This document shows, piece by piece, positions 18,213-42,042 of a stretch of DNA of 64,000 nucleotides. The notes beneath the pieces were generated by a model. That model did no database searches. It had not been told where the DNA came from and saw nothing but the letters and a program-made list of their open reading frames with translations. Origin of the DNA: Patescibacteria group bacterium (GTDB lineage: Bacteria; Patescibacteriota; Patescibacteriia; Magasanikbacterales; GWA2-37-8); assembly GCA_004321885.1 (NCBI GenBank), contig SCQK01000013.1, forward strand, positions 1-64,000, written 5' to 3'. A program made the translations under genes and the position numbers. Every line of letters starts with the position of its first letter. Positions within the stretch are counted from its first letter, which is position 1.

Positions 18213-20664
<2,452 letters not shown>

Positions 20665-21210: not shown

Positions 21211-21342
21211 ATGGAAAAATGCGCCAAATGTAGCATGCCGCTGGAAGCCGAGGAGGTCACTTGCGCGTGCAATGACACGCTTTGCGTTCATTGTTGCGAT
21301 TGCGGGTCTGACTGCGGATGCGAATGCGCCCAGAAAAAGTAG
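21211..21342 (+). CDS. Unannotated 43-aa cysteine-rich peptide (11 Cys): metallothionein-like or zinc-ribbon mini-protein
   Basis: My own translation: MEKCAKCSMPLEAEEVTCACNDTLCVHCCDCGSDCGCECAQKK*. Preceded by the repeat-element SD (AGGAGGGGTAATA). A 9-codon uORF (ATG 21205) overlaps its start. Confidence 0.45.
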   Translation: MEKCAKCSMPLEAEEVTCACNDTLCVHCCDCGSDCGCECAQKK

Positions 21343-21344
21343 GT

Positions 21345-22037
21345 ATGAACGCGCGAAAGGTGTATAAGCACCTTTTCAAGAAATACGGACCACAAGGTTG
21401 GTGGCCACTTTGTCATTCCGACCGAGCGAAGCGAGTGGAGGAATCCCTTTTTGAAATAGCAGTCGGAGCGATACTTACCCAAAGCACCGCCTGGCGCAAT
21501 GTGGCCGTGGCGATTGCGAATCTGGACAAAGCCAAAGCCCTCACGCCCAAGGCGATAATAAAAATGCCGAAAGCACGACTCTGTAAGTTGATAAAGCCGG
21601 CCGGATATTTCAATCAAAAATGCAAGAAGTTGAAAATATTTGCCAAATGGCTGATGGAAAATTGCGGCGGCGACGTCCTGTCATTGCGAGGAGCGAAGCG
21701 ACGAAGCAATCCTTTGGAAATCAGGAATAAATTATTGTCTATCTGGGGCATCGGCAAAGAAACCGCTGATTCAATCATTCTTTACGCCCTGAACAAACCG
21801 ATTTTCGTGATTGACGCCTACACTCGCCGTCTCTGCGCAAAGTTTAGCATAAAATTCAAGGAATACGACGAGTATCGCGAGTTTTTTGAAATGTCATTGC
21901 GAGGAGCGCAGCGACGAAGCAACCCCAAACGTTTAAGCAGGGGATTGCTTCGGCCTGATGGCCTCGCAATGACATACCAAGAATACCACGCCCTTATCGT
22001 CGCCTCAGGCAAAGACAAACACAAGTACGTATTATGA
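21345..22037 (+). CDS. HhH-GPD superfamily DNA glycosylase (endonuclease III-like, no Fe-S cluster) carrying three in-frame repeat-element insertions
   Basis: 'YGPQGWWP', HhH 'IWGIGKETADSIILYAL', 'VIDAYTRRL'. Inserts at 21411-21447, 21679-21712 and 21892-21974 encode 'LCHSDRAKRVEES', 'SLRGAKRRSNP' and 'SLRGAQRRSNPKRLSRGLLRPDGLAMT'. Confidence 0.65.
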   Translation: MNARKVYKHLFKKYGPQGWWPLCHSDRAKRVEESLFEIAVGAILTQSTAWRNVAVAIANLDKAKALTPKAIIKMPKARLCKLIKPAGYFNQKCKKLKIFAKWLMENCGGDVLSLRGAKRRSNPLEIRNKLLSIWGIGKETADSIILYALNKPIFVIDAYTRRLCAKFSIKFKEYDEYREFFEMSLRGAQRRSNPKRLSRGLLRPDGLAMTYQEYHALIVASGKDKHKYVL

Positions 22038-23788
22038 AAACCCATACCAAATTAGCTCTAAAAATTTATTGGCAACACGCGAAGCGATACAGGCTTCTGC
22101 TTTTTATCGTATTTTTTTCTGCTGTCGGTGCCGCCTTGACCGGGGTTGTCATTCCTCTTTATCTTAAGAAATTCGTGGATATACTGGCGTCTCCGGGCGC
22201 TGATGCCTCCAGCCGAATAACATCCATATTAACGCTGTTTGCCGTTTGGCTGGTCGCGCAATGGGCTTTGTGGCGAATAAATACTTTTTCTTTCGCTTAT
22301 TGGCAGACAAAAATCGTGTCGGATTTATTTAACACTTGTTATCAATATTTACACAGGCATTCTTATTCGTTTTTCAACAATACTTTCGTCGGGTCGCTGG
22401 TGAAAAAAGTACAGTGGTTCAGCCGCGGCTTTGAAAACATCTCGGCCACCATTGTTTGGAATTTTTTACACATGGCGGTTCAACTGGTGTTTATCGTGGC
22501 TGTTTTGTTCGGCGTAAATACTGTCTTGGGATTGGGTATGATCGTTTGGCTGATTGTGTTTTTGGTTGTCGCCTGGATTTTCAGTTTGTATAAATTAAAA
22601 TTTGACATCAAACGCAGCGAATCGCAAACGGCCGTGTCGCGCCACTTGGCCGACACTATCACGAATCACAACACTGTTCGTCTATTTGGCGGTTTCGGCA
22701 AAGAAAAGCGTCGCTTTTGGCAATTGACGCAAGAGTATAGCAAGCGCAATATTTTTTCTTGGAATTTGAATAACTACTTTGAAATGGCGCAGGGTGTGTT
22801 GGTGGTGCTTTTGGAATTCGGTTCGCTTTTTATGGCCGCTTATTTGTGGAAGCGCGGTCAATTTACGGTGGGCGATTTTGTGTTGTTGCAAACATTTGTC
22901 TGGACGATTTTTGACCGCACCTGGGAGTTTGGTCGCAACGTGCGCCATTTTTATCAGGATTTGGCCGACGCCGAGGAGATGTCACAAATTTTTGACACAC
23001 CGCACGATATTCAAGACAAGCCCGGAGCCAAAGATTTGAAAGCGAGAGAAGGAAAAATTGAATTCGCGGATGTGACGTTTAATTATCACGAGACCAGAAA
23101 AGTGCTGGACAAATTTAATCTGGTGATCAATTCGCGCGAGCGCGTAGGGCTGGTGGGCCAGTCAGGCGCCGGCAAAACCACGATTGTCGGACTGTTGTTG
23201 CGTTTGTTTGACGTGGGCAGTGGCAAGATTTTGATTGATGGGCAAAATATCGCCGATGTTACGCAAGAAAGTTTGCGCCGCGCCACCAGCATGGTGCCGC
23301 AAGACCCGATATTATTCCATCGAACTTTGATGGAAAACATCCGCTACGGCCGAGCCGATGCCAGCGACGCCGAGGTGATGAAAGCGGCCAAATTGGCGCA
23401 CTGCCACGAGTTTATCAGCGACTTGCCGGATAAGTATGATACCTATGTGGGCGAGCGCGGGGTAAAATTGTCCGGCGGAGAACGCCAGCGCGTGGCCATC
23501 GCGCGCGCCATACTGCGCGACGCGCCGATTTTAGTGTTAGACGAAGCCACTTCCAGCTTGGATTCCGAGTCGGAAAAATTGATACAAGAAGCGATGCTGA
23601 ATTTGATGAAAGACAAGACCGTGATAATCATCGCGCATCGCTTGTCCACCCTCGCGCGTCTGGACAGAATTGTCGTGATAGAAGAGGGTGGGATTATTGA
23701 AGAGGGCTCGCACGAATCCTTGCTCAAAAACCAGCAGGGGATTTACAACAAACTTTGGAATTTGCAAGCCGGGGGATTTATTGTGTAA
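22034..23788 (+). CDS. ABC transporter, fused permease/ATPase (MsbA/exporter type)
   Basis: Six-TM N-terminal half. Walker A 'GQSGAGKTT', signature 'LSGGERQRVAIARA', Walker B 'ILVLDEATS'. Confidence 0.9.
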   Translation: MKTHTKLALKIYWQHAKRYRLLLFIVFFSAVGAALTGVVIPLYLKKFVDILASPGADASSRITSILTLFAVWLVAQWALWRINTFSFAYWQTKIVSDLFNTCYQYLHRHSYSFFNNTFVGSLVKKVQWFSRGFENISATIVWNFLHMAVQLVFIVAVLFGVNTVLGLGMIVWLIVFLVVAWIFSLYKLKFDIKRSESQTAVSRHLADTITNHNTVRLFGGFGKEKRRFWQLTQEYSKRNIFSWNLNNYFEMAQGVLVVLLEFGSLFMAAYLWKRGQFTVGDFVLLQTFVWTIFDRTWEFGRNVRHFYQDLADAEEMSQIFDTPHDIQDKPGAKDLKAREGKIEFADVTFNYHETRKVLDKFNLVINSRERVGLVGQSGAGKTTIVGLLLRLFDVGSGKILIDGQNIADVTQESLRRATSMVPQDPILFHRTLMENIRYGRADASDAEVMKAAKLAHCHEFISDLPDKYDTYVGERGVKLSGGERQRVAIARAILRDAPILVLDEATSSLDSESEKLIQEAMLNLMKDKTVIIIAHRLSTLARLDRIVVIEEGGIIEEGSHESLLKNQQGIYNKLWNLQAGGFIV

Positions 23789-23850
23789 TATGAAAAATAA
23801 AAGTTTTTTATATAGTATCCTTTTATAAATATTGTGGCTATCTTTTTATT

Positions 23851-24309
23851 ATGCCAAAAGAAAAAATGAGAAAAATTGACGAATTGTTTTCAAATGGAAA
23901 AATTTTTGAAGCAAAAAATAAAGAACTTGATAGTATTTTAACTGAATTTACAAGCGATCCAGACACGAATTTACCACAATATAAAAAATTAATACGCGCA
24001 ATTACAGTCCTAACAGTGAAAAATAATAGAAGTGCAAATAGAATCCAAATTTTATTAGTTTTACTCGCTATTTCCTCTGTTTATTTATCCATCATACAAA
24101 CTCGTTTATCTATACAACAGGCAGACTATACAGAAATATCAACAAGAGCTGCTCGTATAGATCAAAATATTTCACTAAGGCAGGGGGCTGATTATTGTAA
24201 ACAGAATCCTACTTCTACCGATTCAGGTTTGTTTTTCGATAATGGCAAATCAGCAACATGCGCTGAAGTTTTAAAATCAAGCAAAATAAAAAATTTGGAT
24301 AATAAATAA
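23851..24309 (+). CDS. Hypothetical single-TM protein in an AT-rich islet
   Basis: 152 aa, one central TM helix, strongly AT-rich codon usage compared with neighbours. Confidence 0.35.
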   Translation: MPKEKMRKIDELFSNGKIFEAKNKELDSILTEFTSDPDTNLPQYKKLIRAITVLTVKNNRSANRIQILLVLLAISSVYLSIIQTRLSIQQADYTEISTRAARIDQNISLRQGADYCKQNPTSTDSGLFFDNGKSATCAEVLKSSKIKNLDNK

Positions 24310-24322
24310 ATAGAACGTTTGT

Positions 24323-24796
24323 ATGGCTCAAATTTTTCAAACAGAAAATTTCATTGTTGAGGCGGCTGACTATCCGCACGTTACGCGCAAAGATGGCGGG
24401 CATATTAAAATTTATCCCAAAGTAAGAATTGTTGACCGGACACAATTATCACCCAAGTTAGCCATTGAACTTATGCGTTTAACGATGCTTATTGGCGAAG
24501 CGATGACTGTCGGACTCAATAATAGAGGCATAGATATAGGCAGGATAAACTATCACGATGATGGAAATTGGAGCGTTTTTAAGCCCGAAGGTCCATATCT
24601 GCACATTCACCTGTACGGCCGGGCTAAAAGTGCAAAAATTCAAAAATGGGGAGATGCACTTTATCAGCCGCAACGCGACACAGGATTTTATGAAAATTGT
24701 GAGCCGTTAAATAACGAGGATATTGTCGAAATTAAAAAAGAGATTGAAATTTTGTCGCGACAGAAAAAATATCAACTTACTGAGTGGGGACTTTGA
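24323..24796 (+). CDS. HIT-like superfamily protein with variant H-x-H-x-Y motif, in the AT-rich islet
   Basis: 'GGHIKIYPK' resembles the HIT 'GHxLVIPK' motif. 'PYLHIHLYGR' sits at the HIT histidine-triad position with the third His replaced by Tyr. Confidence 0.4.
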   Translation: MAQIFQTENFIVEAADYPHVTRKDGGHIKIYPKVRIVDRTQLSPKLAIELMRLTMLIGEAMTVGLNNRGIDIGRINYHDDGNWSVFKPEGPYLHIHLYGRAKSAKIQKWGDALYQPQRDTGFYENCEPLNNEDIVEIKKEIEILSRQKKYQLTEWGL

Positions 24797-24804
24797 TAAA
24801 TATT

Positions 24805-27800
24805 ATGGCGGAGCTAAACAAATCGCAAAAATCGGCGGTGGAGTATGTTGGCGGACCGCTACTGATAGTGGCGGGCGCTGGCACGGGCAAAACCACTGTC
24901 ATCACCAAAAAAATCGCCCACCTGATAGAGCAAAACCTGGCCAAGCCCGAGGGAATTTTGGCGTTGGCTTTTAACGACAAAGCGGCCGATGAAATCCAGA
25001 CCCGCGTTGACGCCGAACTGGAGCTGGGCTACGTCGAAACGCATATTTCCACGTTCCACGCTTTTTGCCAAAAACTTTTGGAAACATACGGGCTGGATAT
25101 TGGCATCTCCAATCAGTTCAAAGTACTCACGCAAACAGACGCCTGGATTTTGGTGCGCAAAAATCTGGATAAGTTCAATCTTGATTATTATCGTCCGCTC
25201 GGCAATCCCACGCGCCATATTCACGAACTCATCAAACATTTTTCCAAATGCAAAGACGAACTGATTACTCCGAATGAATATCTGGAATACGCCGAGAACG
25301 TGGAATTAGACAAAGACAACAAAAACACTGGCGAGCGCACGCGTCTGACAGAGGTGGCCAACGCTTATCACGCCTATAATCAGCTGTTGCTGGACAACAA
25401 CGTCTTGGATTTTGGCGATTTGATTTTTTACGCGAACAAACTATTGGCCGAACGGCCGAAAATTTTAGATGGTTTGCGCAAGCAATTCAAATATATTTTG
25501 GTGGATGAGTTTCAGGACGTGAATTACGCGCAGTATGAGCTCGTGCAAATGCTCTCCCACCCCCCCTCCGTCCCCCCCTCAGGCAGGGGGGGAGGACATG
25601 GAGCCCAACTCACGGCGGTAGGGGATGATGACCAGAGTATCTACGCTTTTCGCGGGGCCTCGGTGTCCAATATCTTGCGCTTCAAAGATGATTATCCGAA
25701 GTGCAAAGAAATCGTGCTGACCGAAAACTATCGCTCGGGACAAAAGATATTGGACATCTGTTACAAATCAATTCAAAACAATAATCCTGACCGGTTGGAA
25801 GCGAAATTAAAAATTGATAAAAAGTTGAAAGTGGCTACCCCCCCTTCGCCCCCCCCTTATCAAGGGGGGGAAGTAATCCATATCCACTGCGCCACCTTGG
25901 AGCAGGAGGCGAGCGCGGTGGCCCAAGAAATATCACGGCTTAAAAAAAGCGAGTCCGAAGCGAACTGGGACGATTTCGCGATTTTGGTGCGCGCCAACAG
26001 CCACGCTGATATTTTTGTAAACGCGCTTGCCAATGCCGGCATTCCCTGTGAGTTTTGGGCCGCCAGCGGCTTGTATCATCAGCCCATCGTATTGGATTGC
26101 TTTAATTTTTTCAAACTCATCACCAATTATCACGAATCAACGGCAATTTACCGCCTCCTGCGCCTGCCGTTTGTAAACTTCAAGGAAAACGACTTACAAA
26201 AAATCACGTATAACGCCCACAAAAAAACCGTTTCGTATTACGAGGCGCTTAAACGCGGCGCCGAGTTTGGTTTATCAACCGAAGGCGCCGTAATCGCGGA
26301 TAAAATCATTTCTCTTATTCACGACGGCATGAAATCCGGCCGCTTTGAAAAACCACACCGCGTGCTTTACGACTTTTTGGACAAGAGTGGCTATCTGAAA
26401 TATCTGGCGCACGAAGAAAACGAGGGCAACGCCAATGTTATCCGACAAATCTACCAGCTGACCGACTTTTTTGAGTTTATAAAAAAGTACGAGCAGGCTA
26501 GCCCCGACGCCAACGTTTACGGCCTGATGGAACACATGGAATATCTGCTTGACTCTGGCGAAGAAGGCGCCATGCGCCAACAAAACGATACGCCCGATTC
26601 GGTGAACATTTTTACCGTGCACAAGGCCAAGGGTTTGGAGTTCAAGTATGTTTTTATGGTCAATCTGGTGGAAGACCGTTTTCCCTCGCGCAAAAAATCC
26701 GAGCCTATTGAAATCCCTCTGCCGCTGGTGAAAGAAAAACTGCCCGAGGGAGACAGCCATCTGCAGGAAGAGCGCCGCTTGTTTTACGTGGCGGCTACGC
26801 GCGCCAAAGAGCGCTTGTATTTTACCAGCGCCGACGACTACGGCGGAGCGCGCAAGAAAAAAATCAGCCGCTTTTTGGATGAGTTGGGGTATAAAGCTGG
26901 CTCCATAGTCCCGCAGGGCTATGGAGCCAAGATGCAGTATGTCTCCATAGGATTGCCTGCGGCAACCACTATGGAGCCAGCGAAGGGTGAGTTTGTTTAC
27001 GCCCCGCCCAAGATTTTTTCCTTTTCGCAAATCAAATCGTACAATAATTGTCCGTATCAGTACAAACTCGCCAGCATTATTCACTTACCGCAAAAGCAAA
27101 GTCACTATTTCAGTTTTGGCAACAGCATGCATAACACCTTACTGGAGTTTTACAAGCGGGTACAGGCGTTAAATAACAGCCGGCAGGAAAGTTTGTTCGG
27201 AATTACAAATGGCTCCGCAGGCCGCGCGGCGGGCACTATCCGCCTACGCGGCACTATGGAGCCAACCGTGAACAGTGTAAACAACGAAGTAAAAGCCCCG
27301 CCCTTGGATGAACTTCTGGGAATTTATCAAAAAAATTGGATTGACGAGTGGTATTTGAGCAAAAAACAAAAAGATGAATACTTTAGCGAAGGCAAAAAAA
27401 TGCTGGCCGCTTTTTACGAATCCAATAAGGACAGGTGGACGGTGCCCGTGGCGCTGGAAGGCGCGTTCAAAATCAAAATAGGGGAGTACTTTTTGGCCGG
27501 ACGCATGGACAGGGTGGATAAACTGCCAGACGGTTCGTTGGAAATTATTGATTACAAAACCGGCGAAAGTAAAGAAACGGCCGCGGGCGAAGAAAAAGAG
27601 CAGTTGATGATTTACCAGATGGCGGCCGAGCAGTTGTCACGCTACAAAGAAATTGGCCGCGCCGGCAAACTCACCCTGTATTATTTACGCGATAATTTGC
27701 CGGTGTCTTTTATCGGCGAGGAAAAAGAACTGGAAAAAATAAAAACAAAACTGCTTGGGGTGATGGAAAAAATAATTGCCGGCGACTTTCGCGCCACGCC

Positions 27801-40049: not shown

Positions 40050-40939
40050 AAAAATTTTATCGCTCACAAACCAATTTCAAACAATACAAACCGTACATTA
40101 GTAGACGGAGGCGGACGGTTAATCATGGCGTAAAAAAAATATTTATCATCGCGGTAGTCGCGCTGGCGACCGCCGGATGGCTCTGGCTCTTGTTGCGCCC
40201 ACCTTATTTTCAGATTCAAACCGTTTCCATAGAGGGTTTGGAAATAATTGACAGCGAGGAAATTCATTTACTCGTCAGGAATGAATACTTGAGTAAAAAA
40301 AGCTGGCTGGGTCTGCTCGCCAATGATAATTATTTTTCCGCCAGCGCCGCAAAAATAGAAAGGTTGATTGCGGATAAATACCCGCTCAATTTTCTTTCGG
40401 TTAAAAAATTATTTCCGAGAAGCATTTCCATATCACTAAAAGAAAAAATTTCCACCGTCATTTTAGACAACGGCAAAGATTATCTCCTGCTTGACGCAGA
40501 CGGCGGGTTGCTCAAAAGCCTCGGCGCGGCCGCTGTTTCAAATTCTACGCCGGTCGCGACCACGAGCGCGAGTACGACTATTTCCGCGCGCGCGCCGGAT
40601 TACTCCAAATTCAAAATTTTATATCCAAAATTTCCGCTGCTACTGTATGAAATGGAAGGACAAATTTCAGCTGACGGAAAAAATTTTCTATCAAGCAAAA
40701 TAATCAGTTCAGTTCTTGAACTTTCCCAAAGGCTAACCGCGGAAGCGGTGGAGACCAGGTATTTTGAGATGAACAGCCCGACGCACATCACAGCGCACGC
40801 GGCTAGACCAAAACAAATTATATTTGCTCTTAACGCTGACTTGGAACCACAAATGGAAAAACTGCGCATAATCATGCGCGCGAAAAAACCAAAAGAATAC
40901 GTTGACCTGCGCTACGGGGAAAGGGTGTTTTGGAAGTGA
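40046..40939 (+). CDS. ftsQ: FtsQ/DivIB-like cell-division protein (TM + POTRA)
   Basis: N-terminal basic tail and TM. 'FQIQTVSIEGLEIIDSEEI' POTRA-like. Confidence 0.6.
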   Translation: MKKFYRSQTNFKQYKPYISRRRRTVNHGVKKIFIIAVVALATAGWLWLLLRPPYFQIQTVSIEGLEIIDSEEIHLLVRNEYLSKKSWLGLLANDNYFSASAAKIERLIADKYPLNFLSVKKLFPRSISISLKEKISTVILDNGKDYLLLDADGGLLKSLGAAAVSNSTPVATTSASTTISARAPDYSKFKILYPKFPLLLYEMEGQISADGKNFLSSKIISSVLELSQRLTAEAVETRYFEMNSPTHITAHAARPKQIIFALNADLEPQMEKLRIIMRAKKPKEYVDLRYGERVFWK

Positions 40940-41088
40940 GGGGAATAGAGGAGGGGGTGTGGACAAGTGCGTTTGACCATATTTATAAAGAGTTATATAA
41001 TTGAGTATAATATCTCTTACACTCAATTCCGTCGCAGTAAAACTGCTCCGGAAGTGTAAGAGTCGGTTAAGTTAGTATTCTATTACGT

Positions 41089-42042
41089 ATGTCTATAAAT
41101 GCACTTCCCTACCTGGATGATTTTATTTTGAACTTGAAAGCAAATAATTTTTCGGAAGAAACCGCGTATAATTACGAACGCGACCTCAATACTTTTGAGA
41201 TTTTTTTGAGTGAAGACCTAAAAAAAACATTTAACAAAGTAGATAAAACTGACCTGCTGAGATTTAAGGCCTATTTGATGTCTTCTGACCGTAAAACGGC
41301 TAAAACCGTCAAAACAAGCAAAAAATTAAGCAGTTATTCTATAAATCGCATACTATCTTCGTTGAGGTCGTATCTGAAATTTTTAGAAGATATGGACCAC
41401 AACCCTCCCGTCTCCCCTGCCGCGGTAAAATTAATCAAGAACATAAAAAAACACGCGCAGGTGCCGGAATTTGAAGAAATCATAAAAGTGATTGAGGCGC
41501 CGATGAAATACGAAGAAGACGAACGAATAGCTCTACGAAATCGGGCGATATTAGAGACACTGTTCGCTACAGGCATGCGTATTTCGGAACTTTTGTCGTT
41601 AAAAGTCGTTCAAATTGACCAAACCGGACGCATCTATATACTGGGAAAAGGCAAAAAACAACGTTTTGTCTACCTGACACCCAGAGCGCTCGCGCACCTA
41701 AAAAATTACCTGGCGAAACGAAACAGTACTTCTGAAATGCTATTTGTCCCCTACCGCGGCAGAAATAACAAAGAAAAAAATAAAAAAATATCGCCTAATT
41801 ATCTTCAATTTAAGATTAAGCGATACAGAGAGTTGCTTGATATCAATATTCCCATCAGCGCGCACACCTTGCGACACGGGTTTGCCACCTATCTGGCTGA
41901 AAACGGGGCAAACCCGGCCGCCATCCAGATATTGCTTGGCCACGAGTCGCTGGATACGACCACTCGCTATGTTCACGCTTCAGACAAATTCGCGGAGAAA
42001 ACTCACCACGATTTTCACCCTCTCTTTAAGGACAAAAACTAA
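41089..42042 (+). CDS. Tyrosine site-specific recombinase (XerC/XerD-like)
   Basis: 'ETLFATGMRISELLSL', catalytic 'HTLRHGFATYL' and 'LLGHESLDTTTRYVH' (R..HxxR..Y). Confidence 0.85.
   Translation: MSINALPYLDDFILNLKANNFSEETAYNYERDLNTFEIFLSEDLKKTFNKVDKTDLLRFKAYLMSSDRKTAKTVKTSKKLSSYSINRILSSLRSYLKFLEDMDHNPPVSPAAVKLIKNIKKHAQVPEFEEIIKVIEAPMKYEEDERIALRNRAILETLFATGMRISELLSLKVVQIDQTGRIYILGKGKKQRFVYLTPRALAHLKNYLAKRNSTSEMLFVPYRGRNNKEKNKKISPNYLQFKIKRYRELLDINIPISAHTLRHGFATYLAENGANPAAIQILLGHESLDTTTRYVHASDKFAEKTHHDFHPLFKDKN

What the first reader, a model, noticed from the sequence alone, without database searches (positions are those of the whole stretch)
23789..24800. A 1-kb AT-rich islet between the ABC exporter and the UvrD-nuclease, carrying a single-TM protein and a HIT-like protein with an H-x-H-x-Y triad variant
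Composition drops sharply versus flanks (long A/T runs, AT-rich codons). The two genes have no obvious housekeeping role. The second protein has HIT-like landmarks ('GGHIKIYPK', 'LHIHLYGR'), but the third histidine of the triad is replaced by Tyr. That would alter or abolish nucleotide hydrolase or transferase chemistry. Together with the Fic gene, it marks this region as a recipient of small foreign cargo genes.
Basis: partly seen in the sequence, partly recalled or inferred. Interest (0 to 1): 0.5.

Follow-up and report, generated by a model that had tools for sequence, protein, structure and literature searches.

The report
Inserted islet with intact HIT enzyme
A 1-kb AT-rich stretch in a Patescibacteria genome is a lineage-specific insertion of two unrelated small genes, an orphan membrane protein and a histidine-triad (HIT) nucleotide hydrolase whose catalytic histidines are intact, so it is an ordinary piece of acquired cargo rather than a chemically altered enzyme.

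Summary
ORF1 (23851-24309) has GC 0.30 and GC3 0.18. ORF2 (24323-24796) has GC 0.40 and GC3 0.36. The 60 window genes average GC 0.48 and GC3 0.56.

**The islet is an insertion.**
- Eighty related genomes keep atpD-atpC-(endoIII)-(ABC)-UvrD-DciA-MreB, and none carries ORF1 or ORF2 there.
- In six of them the ABC gene abuts UvrD.
- A 19-nt imperfect direct repeat brackets the islet (0 of 5000 shuffles match it).

**The "H-x-H-x-Y" reading is off by two residues.** Every alignment to HINT1, FHIT and solved HIT proteins puts Y92-x-H94-x-H96 on the canonical triad.
- The first, least conserved His is the one replaced.
- The nucleophile H94, the proton donor H96 and the helper H27 are all kept.
- Y98 sits at a hydrophobic position (Y, F or L across the family).

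**The family is compact (335 clusters), under strong purifying selection, and stands alone in variable contexts.** ORF1 has only three homologues, and none sits next to a HIT gene, so this is not a two-gene module.

**A possible route exists.** The homologues most similar to ORF2 by identity, and one ORF1 homologue, are cassettes in integron-like arrays. The window itself holds no attC-like site.

**Verdict:** a new member of a known kind, of modest interest.

The parts
23789..23850 (.). AT-rich spacer between the ABC exporter stop and ORF1. It holds the left junction of the insertion.
   Evidence: Sequence read; GC 0.28-0.30; no attC-like hairpin (z = -0.19).
23820..23838 (+). Left copy of the 19-nt imperfect direct repeat, CTTTTATAAATATTGTGGC. 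It reads like a decayed copy of the UvrD start region (GTGGC in place of ATGGC).
   Evidence: only two copies in the 64 kb; 17/19 match between the two junction windows, reached by 0 of 5000 Markov and 0 of 5000 mononucleotide shuffles.
23851..24309 (+). ORF1, 152 aa: an orphan single-pass membrane protein. An alternative start lies at 23866. The N-terminal ~60 aa are probably cytoplasmic. The C-terminal ~65 aa carry two conserved Cys (C116, C137).
   Evidence: GC 0.298, GC3 0.183; no Pfam or NCBIfam match; three homologues; invariant DELFSNGKIFEA and two Cys. AF2 pLDDT 71, long helix 43-118.
24043..24099 (+). Codons of the single transmembrane segment of ORF1 (residues 65-83, IQILLVLLAISSVYLSIIQ).
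   Evidence: Kyte-Doolittle 19-residue mean 2.16. Basic residues K57, R60 and R64 lie on the N-terminal side.
24310..24322 (+). 13-nt spacer between ORF1 and ORF2, ATAGAACGTTTGT. It contains AAC|GTT, which resembles the cassette boundary (A)AAC|GTTRYNN seen in integron-like arrays of relatives. This may be a relic of such a boundary or may be chance.
   Evidence: Sequence. Boundary motif in L005-L007 and L098/99. No hairpin here (z = 0.60).
24323..24796 (+). ORF2, 157 aa: a HIT-superfamily nucleotide hydrolase/transferase belonging to a compact, uncharacterised subfamily.
24401..24403 (+). Codon of His27, in DGGH-I-K-I-Y-P-K. It is equivalent to HINT1 His51 / E. coli HinT His39, which supports the third triad histidine.
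   Evidence: Alignments. His in 61 of 64 relatives. Role taken from PMC7157772.
24596..24622 (+). Triad strand Y92-L-H94-I-H96-L-Y98-G-R100. H94 is the predicted nucleophile and H96 the predicted proton donor. Y92 replaces the first His. Y98 is a hydrophobic position. R100 is invariant.
   Evidence: Register. Column counts.
24791..24809 (+). Right copy of the 19-nt direct repeat, CTTTGATAAATATTATGGC. It spans the last codon and stop of ORF2 and the ATG of UvrD (24805).

Best explanation
**What the islet is.** It is a lineage-specific insertion of about 0.95-1.0 kb into the short spacer in front of the UvrD-type helicase-nuclease gene of a Magasanikbacteria-like Patescibacterium. It carries two unrelated accessory genes.

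**ORF2.** It belongs to a compact, strongly conserved, so far uncharacterised subfamily of the HIT superfamily, and its catalytic apparatus is intact.
- His94 (the central triad His) would attack the alpha-phosphate of a nucleoside-5'-monophosphate-X substrate and form a covalent NMP-His intermediate.
- His96 (the third triad His) would protonate the leaving group, helped by His27.
- Asn76 lies on the strand that aligns with the phosphate-binding Asn of Hint.
- Only the first, least conserved triad position is Tyr (Y92).
- The substrate is unknown. Dinucleoside polyphosphates and nucleotide phosphoramidates or acyl-adenylates are the usual substrates of this fold.

**ORF1.** It is an orphan single-pass membrane protein of unknown role. 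It was acquired with ORF2 or next to it, and is not a conserved partner.

**What is shown and what is inferred.**
- Shown: the insertion, the fold, the triad register, residue conservation and purifying selection.
- Inferred: enzymatic activity and the mechanistic roles of residues (by homology), and the route of acquisition.
- The 19-nt direct repeats suggest a circular piece of DNA joined the chromosome at a short shared sequence, leaving one copy at each end. Cassette-borne relatives suggest an integron-like gene pool as the source.
For: **Insertion.**
- 80 related loci keep the backbone. None has an ORF1, ORF2 or Fic match.
- in L015, L016, L021, L035, L057 and L092 the ABC gene ends 85-135 nt before UvrD.
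- GC3 z-scores are -4.5 and -2.4.
- HIT homologues normally track host GC (r = 0.86, mean difference -0.001, sd 0.039, n = 64). The window copy is 0.084 below its flanks, tied for second-lowest of the 64.
- the bracketing 19-nt repeat.
- an independent assembly (L173) is 100% identical across both junctions.

**Fold.**

**Register.**
- Searches (3imi; FHIT; HINT1) give the same register.
- five solved HIT proteins, E = 7.6e-6 to 4e-4, all align ...H-x-H-x-H-phi-phi-P-R with x-L-H94-x-H96-L-Y98-G-R100.

**Conservation.** H27 61/64, N76 61/64, H94 58/64, H96 57/64 plus 5 Gln, Y98 Y49/F13/L2, R100 64/64.

**Selection.** dN 0.12-0.17 with saturated dS, so dN/dS is below 0.1.

**Residue roles.** PMC7157772.
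Against: - The window protein itself scores below the Pfam HIT gathering threshold (16.2 versus 21.5 bits) and matches no NCBIfam model.
- No residue-level structural superposition could be obtained. The register rests on sequence and profile alignments, and the single-sequence hhalign probabilities were low.
- No substrate can be named, because context is not conserved.
- Synonymous sites are saturated against every sampled relative, so no donor is identified and the transfer cannot be dated.
- The junction windows for the repeat test were chosen after the repeat had been seen.
Confidence: 0.72

Rival explanations
1. ORF2 is a HIT-like protein whose triad is H-x-H-x-Y, with the third histidine replaced by tyrosine. 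The usual hydrolase/transferase chemistry would then be altered or lost.
For: The letters H94-I-H96-L-Y98 are in the sequence, and Y98 is invariant among close relatives. Variants at the third position do exist in real HIT enzymes: Lys in the MccH clade (PMC7157772), and Gln in the GalT branch (from established knowledge of that branch).
Against: All alignments to canonical HIT proteins place H94 and H96 on the second and third triad histidines, and Y98 on a hydrophobic position followed by G/P-R. In diverse relatives position 98 is Phe in 13 and Leu in 2 of 64. That rules out a hydroxyl-dependent catalytic role. Position 96 shows the H/Q alternation typical of the third triad position, and position 92 is most often His.
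Confidence: 0.04
2. The two genes are old residents of this lineage that were lost from relatives. Their low GC would reflect small size, low expression or amino-acid content rather than foreign origin.
For: The nearest genome in the species-level collection is distant (65% identity for UvrD), so recent history is unsampled. dS is saturated against all sampled relatives. The slot upstream of UvrD is variable in relatives.
Against: None of 80 relatives has either gene there. A GC3 of 0.18 and 0.36 cannot come from amino-acid content. HIT homologues elsewhere match their host's GC. A direct repeat brackets the islet. A second AT-rich gene (Fic) interrupts the atp operon only in this genome.
Confidence: 0.07
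3. ORF1 and ORF2 form a functional two-gene module, such as a membrane sensor or anchor plus a HIT enzyme, that moves as a unit.
For: They are 13 nt apart on the same strand and lie inside the same bracketing repeat. Both have relatives in integron-like arrays.
Against: ORF1 has only three homologues against more than 1000 for ORF2. The ORF1 homologues sit next to PheT, or next to a recombinase and a membrane protein, never next to a HIT gene. A tblastn search with ORF1 found nothing in 83 HIT loci. No neighbour family recurs in more than 5 of 83 loci. The two genes differ strongly in GC3 (0.18 versus 0.36), which hints at separate histories.
Confidence: 0.06
4. The islet descends from integron-type gene cassettes. 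ORF1 and ORF2 were separate cassettes in an array. They fused by loss of the recombination site between them, then landed in front of UvrD and lost their remaining attC-like sites.
For: - Seven of the ten homologues most similar to ORF2 (76-80% identity) are flanked by the cassette-type inverted repeats. In all, 8 of 70 loci reach 17/20 or better against 0 shuffled controls.
- L005 shows a divergent recombinase followed by at least four cassettes, separated by sites that fold into attC-like hairpins (z = -2.8 to -4.8).
- The ORF1 homologue P0123 is the first cassette next to such a recombinase in L010.
- The recombinases score 207-233 bits on the integron-integrase/XerA models.
- The ORF1/ORF2 spacer contains AAC|GTT, like the cassette boundaries.
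Against: - No attC-like block or hairpin exists in the islet or anywhere in the 64 kb.
- The only recombinase found in the window (41089-42042, about 16 kb away) is XerC/D-like, not IntI-like.
- In a neighbour-joining tree the window protein falls just outside the tight cassette clade, beside a chromosomal copy next to GatB.
- Tyrosine-recombinase insertion at a secondary site would not by itself make a 19-nt direct repeat.
- A single AACGTT in 13 nt can be chance.
Confidence: 0.3
5. ORF2 is a detoxifying or immunity enzyme against nucleotide-type antibiotics, working like the MccH HIT phosphoramidases. That would explain why close relatives travel as cassettes, sometimes beside RimL-type GNAT acetyltransferases.
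For: HIT phosphoramidases give resistance to peptide-nucleotide antibiotics (PMC7157772). In L005-L007 the HIT cassette is followed by an Acetyltransf_3 cassette. In L010 an Acetyltransf_3 gene lies beyond the recombinase.
Against: The MccH signature is absent: third His to Lys, loss of the N-terminal His, and an added Glu. ORF2 keeps H96 and H27. GNAT adjacency is confined to a few near-identical contigs. Most family members are ordinary chromosomal genes whose GC matches the host.
Confidence: 0.12

Closest known systems
Fhit/Hint-type HIT proteins, e.g. human FHIT (7p8p, 1fit), C. elegans NitFhit (1ems) and uncharacterised bacterial HIT proteins 2oik (Mfla_2506), 7mqw, 2eo4, 3l7x, 3o0m
   Same: - Same G-H-phi-phi-phi-phi-P-K element with the helper His (H27).
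- Same strand x-phi-H-phi-H-phi-phi-(G/P)-R, with the nucleophile and third His.
- A C-terminal extension after the triad, as in the Fhit-like branch.
   Different: - Only 12-21% identity.
- The first triad His is Tyr here. It is variable in the family, with His in 15 of 64.
- A 5-7 residue insertion with a short helix (N82-W83...) lies between the Asn strand and the triad.
- Family-specific invariants are D-G-G-H, N-Y-Q-x-N-G-N-W, Y/F98, R100 and Q107.
- A family profile finds only 335 clusters among 1.84 billion representatives and does not run into the bulk of HIT proteins.
- The window protein is below the Pfam gathering score.
MccH-clade HIT phosphoramidases (resistance to microcin C-like antibiotics; PMC7157772)
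   Same: A small stand-alone HIT enzyme with a C-terminal extension. It can be an accessory, horizontally moving gene. It carries a variant triad.
   Different: MccH has H-x-H-x-K, has lost the N-terminal His (Phe instead) and has gained a Glu. ORF2 keeps H-x-H and the N-terminal His, and varies only at the first triad position.
Integron gene cassettes and chromosomal cassette arrays
   Same: The homologues most similar to ORF2 by identity, and one ORF1 homologue, lie in arrays of single ORFs. The ORFs are separated by sites with ...YAAC / GTTRY... boxes that fold into R-box/L-box hairpins with bulged bases. The arrays sit beside a divergent IntI/XerA-like tyrosine recombinase. Each cassette's first 7 nt are complementary to its own R'' box.
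   Different: - The window islet has no such site and no such recombinase.
- In the arrays the recombinases (269-308 aa) lack the stretch aligned to the IntI-specific additional domain. That alignment used an IntI1 sequence recalled from memory.
- The recombinases fall below the TIGR02249 cut-off.
- Complementarity between the two ends of each cassette runs 20-50 nt beyond the R box.
Small genomic islets integrated at short att-like direct repeats
   Same: Anomalous composition, absence from relatives, and a short direct repeat at both junctions.
   Different: The islet is only about 1 kb, carries no integrase or mobility gene, and is not next to a tRNA gene. The repeat overlaps the stop codon of the incoming gene and the start codon of the resident gene.

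Membership tests
HIT superfamily (histidine triad nucleotide hydrolases/transferases) | HIT alpha+beta fold | tested here: met
   [not shown]
HIT superfamily (histidine triad nucleotide hydrolases/transferases) | Central triad histidine (nucleophile) in the H-phi-H-phi-H-phi-phi strand | tested here: met
   H94 aligns with FHIT H96 / HINT1 H112 and with the central His of 3l7x, 2oik, 1ems, 2eo4 and 3lb5. His in 58 of 64 relatives.
HIT superfamily (histidine triad nucleotide hydrolases/transferases) | Third triad histidine (proton donor) | tested here: met
   H96 aligns with FHIT H98 / HINT1 H114. His in 57 and Gln in 5 of 64 relatives.
HIT superfamily (histidine triad nucleotide hydrolases/transferases) | First triad histidine | tested here: not met
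   Y92 occupies this position. In the family it is H15/S9/R7/K5/Y4 and others. As I recall it, the PROSITE HIT signature allows other residues here; this was not checked with a tool.
HIT superfamily (histidine triad nucleotide hydrolases/transferases) | Score above the curated Pfam PF01230 gathering threshold | tested here: not met
   16.2 bits against a 21.5 cut-off for the window protein. 25 of 64 diverse relatives match PF01230 at E < 0.01, best 3e-9.
HIT superfamily (histidine triad nucleotide hydrolases/transferases) | Nucleotide hydrolase/transferase activity through a covalent NMP-His intermediate | not testable with these tools
   Needs enzymology.
MccH clade of HIT phosphoramidases | H-x-H-x-K triad, N-terminal His replaced by Phe, and a Glu five residues before the triad (PMC7157772) | tested here: not met
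   ORF2 has H96, not Lys, and keeps H27.
GalT-type HIT branch | H-x-H-x-Q motif in a duplicated (two half-barrel) protein of about 350 aa | tested here: not met
   ORF2 is a single domain of 157 aa with H-x-H at positions 94 and 96. GalT chains rank below the single-domain HIT proteins.
Integron gene cassette (for the window islet) | attC recombination site 3' of the ORF | tested here: not met
   No attC-like hairpin at either end of, or between, the two ORFs (z = -0.19 to 0.60). No match to the conserved array blocks anywhere in the 64 kb.
Integron (for the arrays that hold the closest homologues, e.g. L005) | Array of ORFs separated by attC sites (R''-L''-loop-L'-R', with conserved AAC/GTT) that fold as hairpins on one strand | tested here: met
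   (repeated sites and boundaries); bottom-strand hairpins, z = -2.8 to -4.8. No published attC covariance model was available here.
Integron (for the arrays that hold the closest homologues, e.g. L005) | Integron integrase with the IntI-specific additional domain around patch III | tested here: not met
   The recombinases are 269-308 aa. They score 207-221 bits on TIGR02249 (cut-off 265), matched in two stretches. Aligned to IntI1 (sequence recalled from memory), about 45 residues of the additional domain are missing. The best model is NF040815, 'XerA / integron integrase'.

The most novel reading that the evidence does not exclude
The HIT subfamily could be a widely shared accessory enzyme of ultra-small groundwater bacteria. 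It would circulate through an undescribed kind of integron-like cassette system, with XerA/IntI-like recombinases that lack the IntI extra domain and cassettes whose two ends pair over 20-50 nt. It would confer a selectable trait, such as breakdown of a nucleotide-type toxin or removal of protein or DNA adenylylation. The window islet would then be a snapshot of two such cassettes becoming fixed in a chromosome.
Probability: 0.15. Interest if true: 0.6.

Novelty: new member of a known kind. Interest (0 to 1): 0.32.

Why it matters
**For the finding itself.** It corrects an attractive but wrong reading. The enzyme is not a triad-defective HIT protein, so there is no case for unusual chemistry. 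What remains is a clean, well-delimited example of a 1-kb gene insertion into a conserved backbone of a reduced Patescibacteria genome. A second insertion (Fic, inside the atp operon) lies 4.5 kb away.

**Two things may deserve more work.**
- A compact HIT subfamily is kept at 65-80% identity across very different hosts, and its substrate is unknown.
- The homologues most similar to ORF2 by identity ride in integron-like arrays whose recombinase and recombination sites depart from textbook integrons.

Tried and rejected
1. Single-sequence and 25-sequence profile searches of the PDB gave only E = 0.3-0.9 to HIT proteins, with chance hits to P22 coat protein. They became significant only with the 64-sequence profile.
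2. NCBIfam: no match for either ORF.
3. Viral contigs: no relative of ORF2.
4. Conserved-neighbour search around 83 HIT loci: nothing recurrent.
5. Promoter and terminator scan of the islet: no more sites than in shuffles.
6. attC-like hairpins or conserved array blocks in the window: none.
7. Comparison of the sequence upstream of UvrD in relatives, to reconstruct the empty site: too diverged to align.
8. ORF1 structure prediction: low confidence (pLDDT 71, pTM 0.35). It shows only a long helix, so no fold search was run.
9. Direct repeats around the Fic gene: none.
10. A link between Fic (AMPylation) and HIT (possible de-AMPylation): there is no co-occurrence. The only Fic match among HIT loci is a weak one in L149.
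11. dS-based dating: synonymous sites are saturated.
12. Literature search for integrons in Patescibacteria/CPR: nothing specific in the held library.
Full report
**What is there.**
- The window comes from a Patescibacteria-group MAG. ORF2 is identical to NCBI protein EPN28_03035.
- Two plus-strand ORFs lie between an ABC exporter (22034-23788; ABC_membrane + ABC_tran) and a UvrD/PD-(D/E)XK helicase-nuclease. ORF1 is 23851-24309 (152 aa). ORF2 is 24323-24796 (157 aa).
- The longest reading frame of the helicase starts at GTG 24784 and would overlap ORF2. The in-frame ATG at 24805 is the likely start and leaves an 8-nt gap.
- An independent assembly (L173, 2585 nt) is 100% identical across both junctions, so the arrangement is not a binning artefact.

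**Composition.**
- Sixty window genes average GC 0.481 (sd 0.043) and GC3 0.559 (sd 0.083).
- ORF1 has GC 0.298 and GC3 0.183 (z = -4.5). ORF2 has GC 0.403 and GC3 0.361 (z = -2.4).
- Only three places in the 64 kb fall below GC 0.36 in 460-nt windows: this islet, the Fic gene at 18213-19289, and the start of a Xer-like recombinase gene near 41000.
- The compositional observation is confirmed.

**The islet is an insertion.**
- A scan of one genome per species with the helicase protein returned 80 loci, mostly Magasanikbacteria and other Patescibacteria, at 42-65% identity.
- They keep the backbone atpD-atpC-(endoIII)-(ABC)-UvrD-DciA-membrane protein-MreB. None has a tblastn match to ORF1, ORF2 or the Fic protein.
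- In six loci (L015, L016, L021, L035, L057, L092) the ABC gene ends 85-135 nt before the helicase start.
- In other relatives the same slot holds assorted small genes. These include a NUDIX hydrolase (L013, the closest relative), a radical-SAM enzyme, a TrmB regulator, an MvaI/BcnI restriction-modification pair, an HD-domain protein, DUF5671 and a carbonic-anhydrase-like protein. The position in front of the helicase gene is thus a variable slot in this lineage.
- Across 64 loci that carry a homologue of ORF2, the gene's GC follows that of its flanks (r = 0.86, mean difference -0.001, sd 0.039). The window copy is 0.084 below its flanks, tied for second-lowest of the 64.

**Junctions.**
- An imperfect 19-nt direct repeat brackets the islet. 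CTTTTATAAATATTGTGGC is at 23820-23838, 12 nt before ORF1. CTTTGATAAATATTATGGC is at 24791-24809, spanning the last codon and stop of ORF2 and the ATG of the helicase gene.
- It occurs nowhere else in the window with up to 3 mismatches.
- A 17/19 match between the two junction windows was reached in 0 of 5000 first-order Markov shuffles and 0 of 5000 mononucleotide shuffles. The windows were chosen after the repeat was seen.
- The two mismatches flank an identical 9-nt core. The outer bases fit a crossover inside the core between a chromosomal site (CTTTT...ATGGC) and a site on a circular incoming DNA (CTTTG...GTGGC). This reading is inference.

**ORF2 is a HIT-fold protein.**
- Pfam HIT matches below threshold (16.2 versus 21.5 bits). 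NCBIfam has nothing.
- An AlphaFold2 model built on 25 homologues has pLDDT 90.5 and pTM 0.87.
- Foldseek against the PDB gives only HIT proteins at the top (2oik E = 4e-6, 2eo4, 3o0m, 3lb5, Fhit).

**The triad register.** Every alignment disagrees.
- phmmer to 3imi pairs Y92-L-H94-I-H96 with H-F-H-L-H.
- hhalign to FHIT pairs P-Y-L-H-I-H-L-Y-G-R with K-H-V-H-V-H-V-L-P-R. hhalign to HINT1 pairs Y-L-H-I-H-L-Y-G with H-V-H-L-H-V-L-G.
- A profile of 64 diverse relatives hits five solved HIT proteins at E = 7.6e-6 to 4e-4, always in this register.
- Column counts in those 64 relatives (at most about 57% identical to the query) agree with it:
  - position 92 is variable, with His commonest (15);
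  - position 94 is His in 58;
  - position 96 is His in 57 and Gln in 5;
  - position 98 is Tyr 49, Phe 13, Leu 2;
  - position 99 is Gly in 57;
  - position 100 is Arg in all 64.
- A position that accepts Phe and Leu is a packing residue, not a catalytic tyrosine. H/Q alternation is what the third triad position shows in GalT-type enzymes.
- The upstream helper histidine (H27 in DGGH-IKIYPK) is equivalent to HinT H39 / HINT1 H51. It is His in 61 of 64.
- According to PMC7157772, the central His is the nucleophile, the C-terminal His donates the proton, and the N-terminal His stabilises it. All three are present in ORF2. The claim that chemistry is altered or abolished is not supported.

**The family.**
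- The word-indexed search found more than 1000 homologues at 67-80% identity. They come from Moran-, Wolfe-, Parcu- and Paceibacteria-type genomes and some Ignavibacteria. JGI labels them 'Ap4A HIT family hydrolase' and NCBI mostly labels them 'hypothetical'.
- An exhaustive profile search of 1.84 billion representatives found only 335 clusters at E <= 1e-3. The family is compact and does not merge into the mass of ordinary HIT proteins.
- dN is 0.12-0.17 with saturated dS against eight relatives, so dN/dS is below 0.1. That means strong purifying selection and no recently shared ancestor with any sampled copy.
- The gene is stand-alone. Neighbours differ in every well-sampled context (acetate kinase/MurJ, L9/methyltransferase, GatB, and others). 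The commonest neighbour family occurs in 5 of 83 loci.
- Occasional fusions join it to SAM methyltransferases (twice), to a His-phosphatase+GDPD protein, and to a Ham1 fragment.
- No relative was found in viral contigs.

**ORF1.**
- It has no family match and three homologues in 5.8 billion clusters. One is the same gene from the same organism. The others are 48-56% identical.
- It has one transmembrane segment (residues 65-83) with basic residues on the N-terminal side.
- It has an invariant DELFSNGKIFEA near the N-terminus and two invariant Cys in the C-terminal part.
- The AF2 model is poor (pLDDT 71) and mostly one long helix.
- Its homologues sit before PheT (L008), or beside a tyrosine recombinase and a membrane protein (L010). 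They never sit beside a HIT gene. A tblastn search with ORF1 finds nothing in the 83 HIT loci. So this is not a two-gene module.

**Where such genes travel.**
- The homologues most similar to ORF2 (L005/6/7, L093, L095, L096, L098/99, L100; 76-80% identity) share conserved non-coding flanks. These form roughly 30-nt inverted repeats around the gene.
- Eight of 70 testable loci reach at least 17/20 complementarity, against none of the shuffled controls.
- L005 shows the full layout:
  - a divergently oriented tyrosine recombinase;
  - then at least four single-ORF units;
  - the units are separated by sites of the form ...ACATCNNRYAAC - stem - loop - stem - AAAC|GTTRYNNGAAAT;
  - each unit's first 7 nt are complementary to the ...YAAC box at its own 3' end.
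- The bottom strands fold into hairpins with an R-box stem, an unpaired spacer, an L-box stem with a bulged base, and a variable loop (z = -2.8 to -4.8).
- The recombinases match NF040815 ('XerA / integron integrase', 211-233 bits) and TIGR02249 (207-221 bits, below the 265 cut-off).
- Aligned with IntI1 (sequence from memory), they lack about 45 residues of the IntI-specific additional domain. That domain is a defining trait of integron integrases (PMC9668308). I therefore call these arrays integron-like, not integrons.
- The ORF1 homologue P0123 is the first unit next to such a recombinase in L010.
- This gives a plausible gene pool for both genes of the islet. The link is not proven, for four reasons:
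  - the window has no attC-like hairpin or block;
  - its only recombinase is XerC/D-like and about 16 kb away;
  - in a neighbour-joining tree the window protein lies just outside the tight cassette clade, beside a chromosomal copy that follows GatB;
  - the AAC|GTT in the 13-nt ORF1/ORF2 spacer resembles a cassette boundary but may be chance.

**The Fic gene.**
- The 358-aa Fic-domain gene at 18213-19289 has GC 0.35 and GC3 0.295. It sits between atpG and atpD with 3- and 7-nt spacers.
- In 22 of 24 relatives atpG effectively abuts atpD. L070 and L089 leave about 0.3-0.5 kb. None has a Fic match.
- No direct repeat flanks it.

**Verdict.**
- The enzymological hook (H-x-H-x-Y) is a two-residue register error.
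- ORF2 is a new member of a known kind: an uncharacterised but conventional-looking HIT subfamily with nucleophile, proton donor and helper histidine in place.
- ORF1 is an orphan membrane protein.
- Interest is modest. The most promising loose ends are the unknown substrate of this tightly conserved HIT subfamily and the unusual integron-like arrays in which its closest sampled relatives reside.

Noticed in passing
window 18213-19289: A 358-aa Fic-domain gene (GC 0.35, GC3 0.295) is wedged between atpG and atpD with 3- and 7-nt spacers. In 22 of 24 related genomes atpG effectively abuts atpD (two leave about 0.3-0.5 kb), and none has a Fic match. No flanking direct repeat was found.
   Followed up: partly
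L005 1016-6359; also L098/L099, L093, L095, L096, L100, L010: These are integron-like cassette arrays. A divergent XerA/IntI-like tyrosine recombinase (269-308 aa) appears to lack the IntI-specific additional domain. Single-ORF units follow, separated by attC-like hairpin sites with AAC|GTT boundaries. Unusually, each unit's 5' end (GTTRYNNGAAAT plus 12-40 nt) is complementary to its own 3' end, far beyond the 7-nt R box.
   Followed up: partly
L010 2620-3260: A 162-aa membrane-protein ORF with its own 25-nt inverted repeats sits between the L'' and L' arms of the attC-like site of the ORF1-homologue cassette. A GTTCCAC direct repeat flanks it, as if one cassette had been inserted into the recombination site of another.
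   Followed up: no
L013 5282-5758, L058 5413-5943, L063 4045-5621, L022, L029, L046, L061 (the slot just upstream of the UvrD homologue): The position in front of the helicase-nuclease gene is a variable slot in relatives. It holds a NUDIX hydrolase (closest relative), an HD-domain protein, an MvaI/BcnI restriction-modification pair, a radical-SAM enzyme, a TrmB regulator, DUF5671 or a carbonic-anhydrase-like protein. Three different small nucleotide-hydrolase folds (HIT, NUDIX, HD) occupy it in different genomes.
   Followed up: partly
window 21211-21342; L018 5649-5837: A Cys-rich mini-ORF (43 aa, ...CVHCCDCGSDCGCECAQKK) lies between atpC and the endonuclease III-like gene. A similar 62-aa ORF (...CVRCCGCDESCGCECIDK) lies between atpC and UvrD in a Magasanikbacteria relative.
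   Followed up: no
P0191, P0194 (fusions); L001/L101 4366-4959: Members of the ORF2 HIT family are fused to class I SAM methyltransferase domains in two representative proteins. One lies directly downstream of such a methyltransferase in a Wolfebacteria contig. Other fusions join the family to His_Phos_1+GDPD (P0128) and to a Ham1 fragment (P0133).
   Followed up: no
window 41089-42042: A XerC/XerD-like tyrosine recombinase gene is low in GC (0.41), with an AT-rich stretch at 40921-41451. It scores far lower on the integron-integrase model than the array-linked recombinases do.
   Followed up: partly
window 24784-24809: The longest ORF of the helicase-nuclease starts at GTG 24784 and overlaps ORF2 by 13 nt. 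The in-frame ATG at 24805 (MAELNKSQ...) is the likelier start and lies inside the right copy of the 19-nt repeat.
   Followed up: yes
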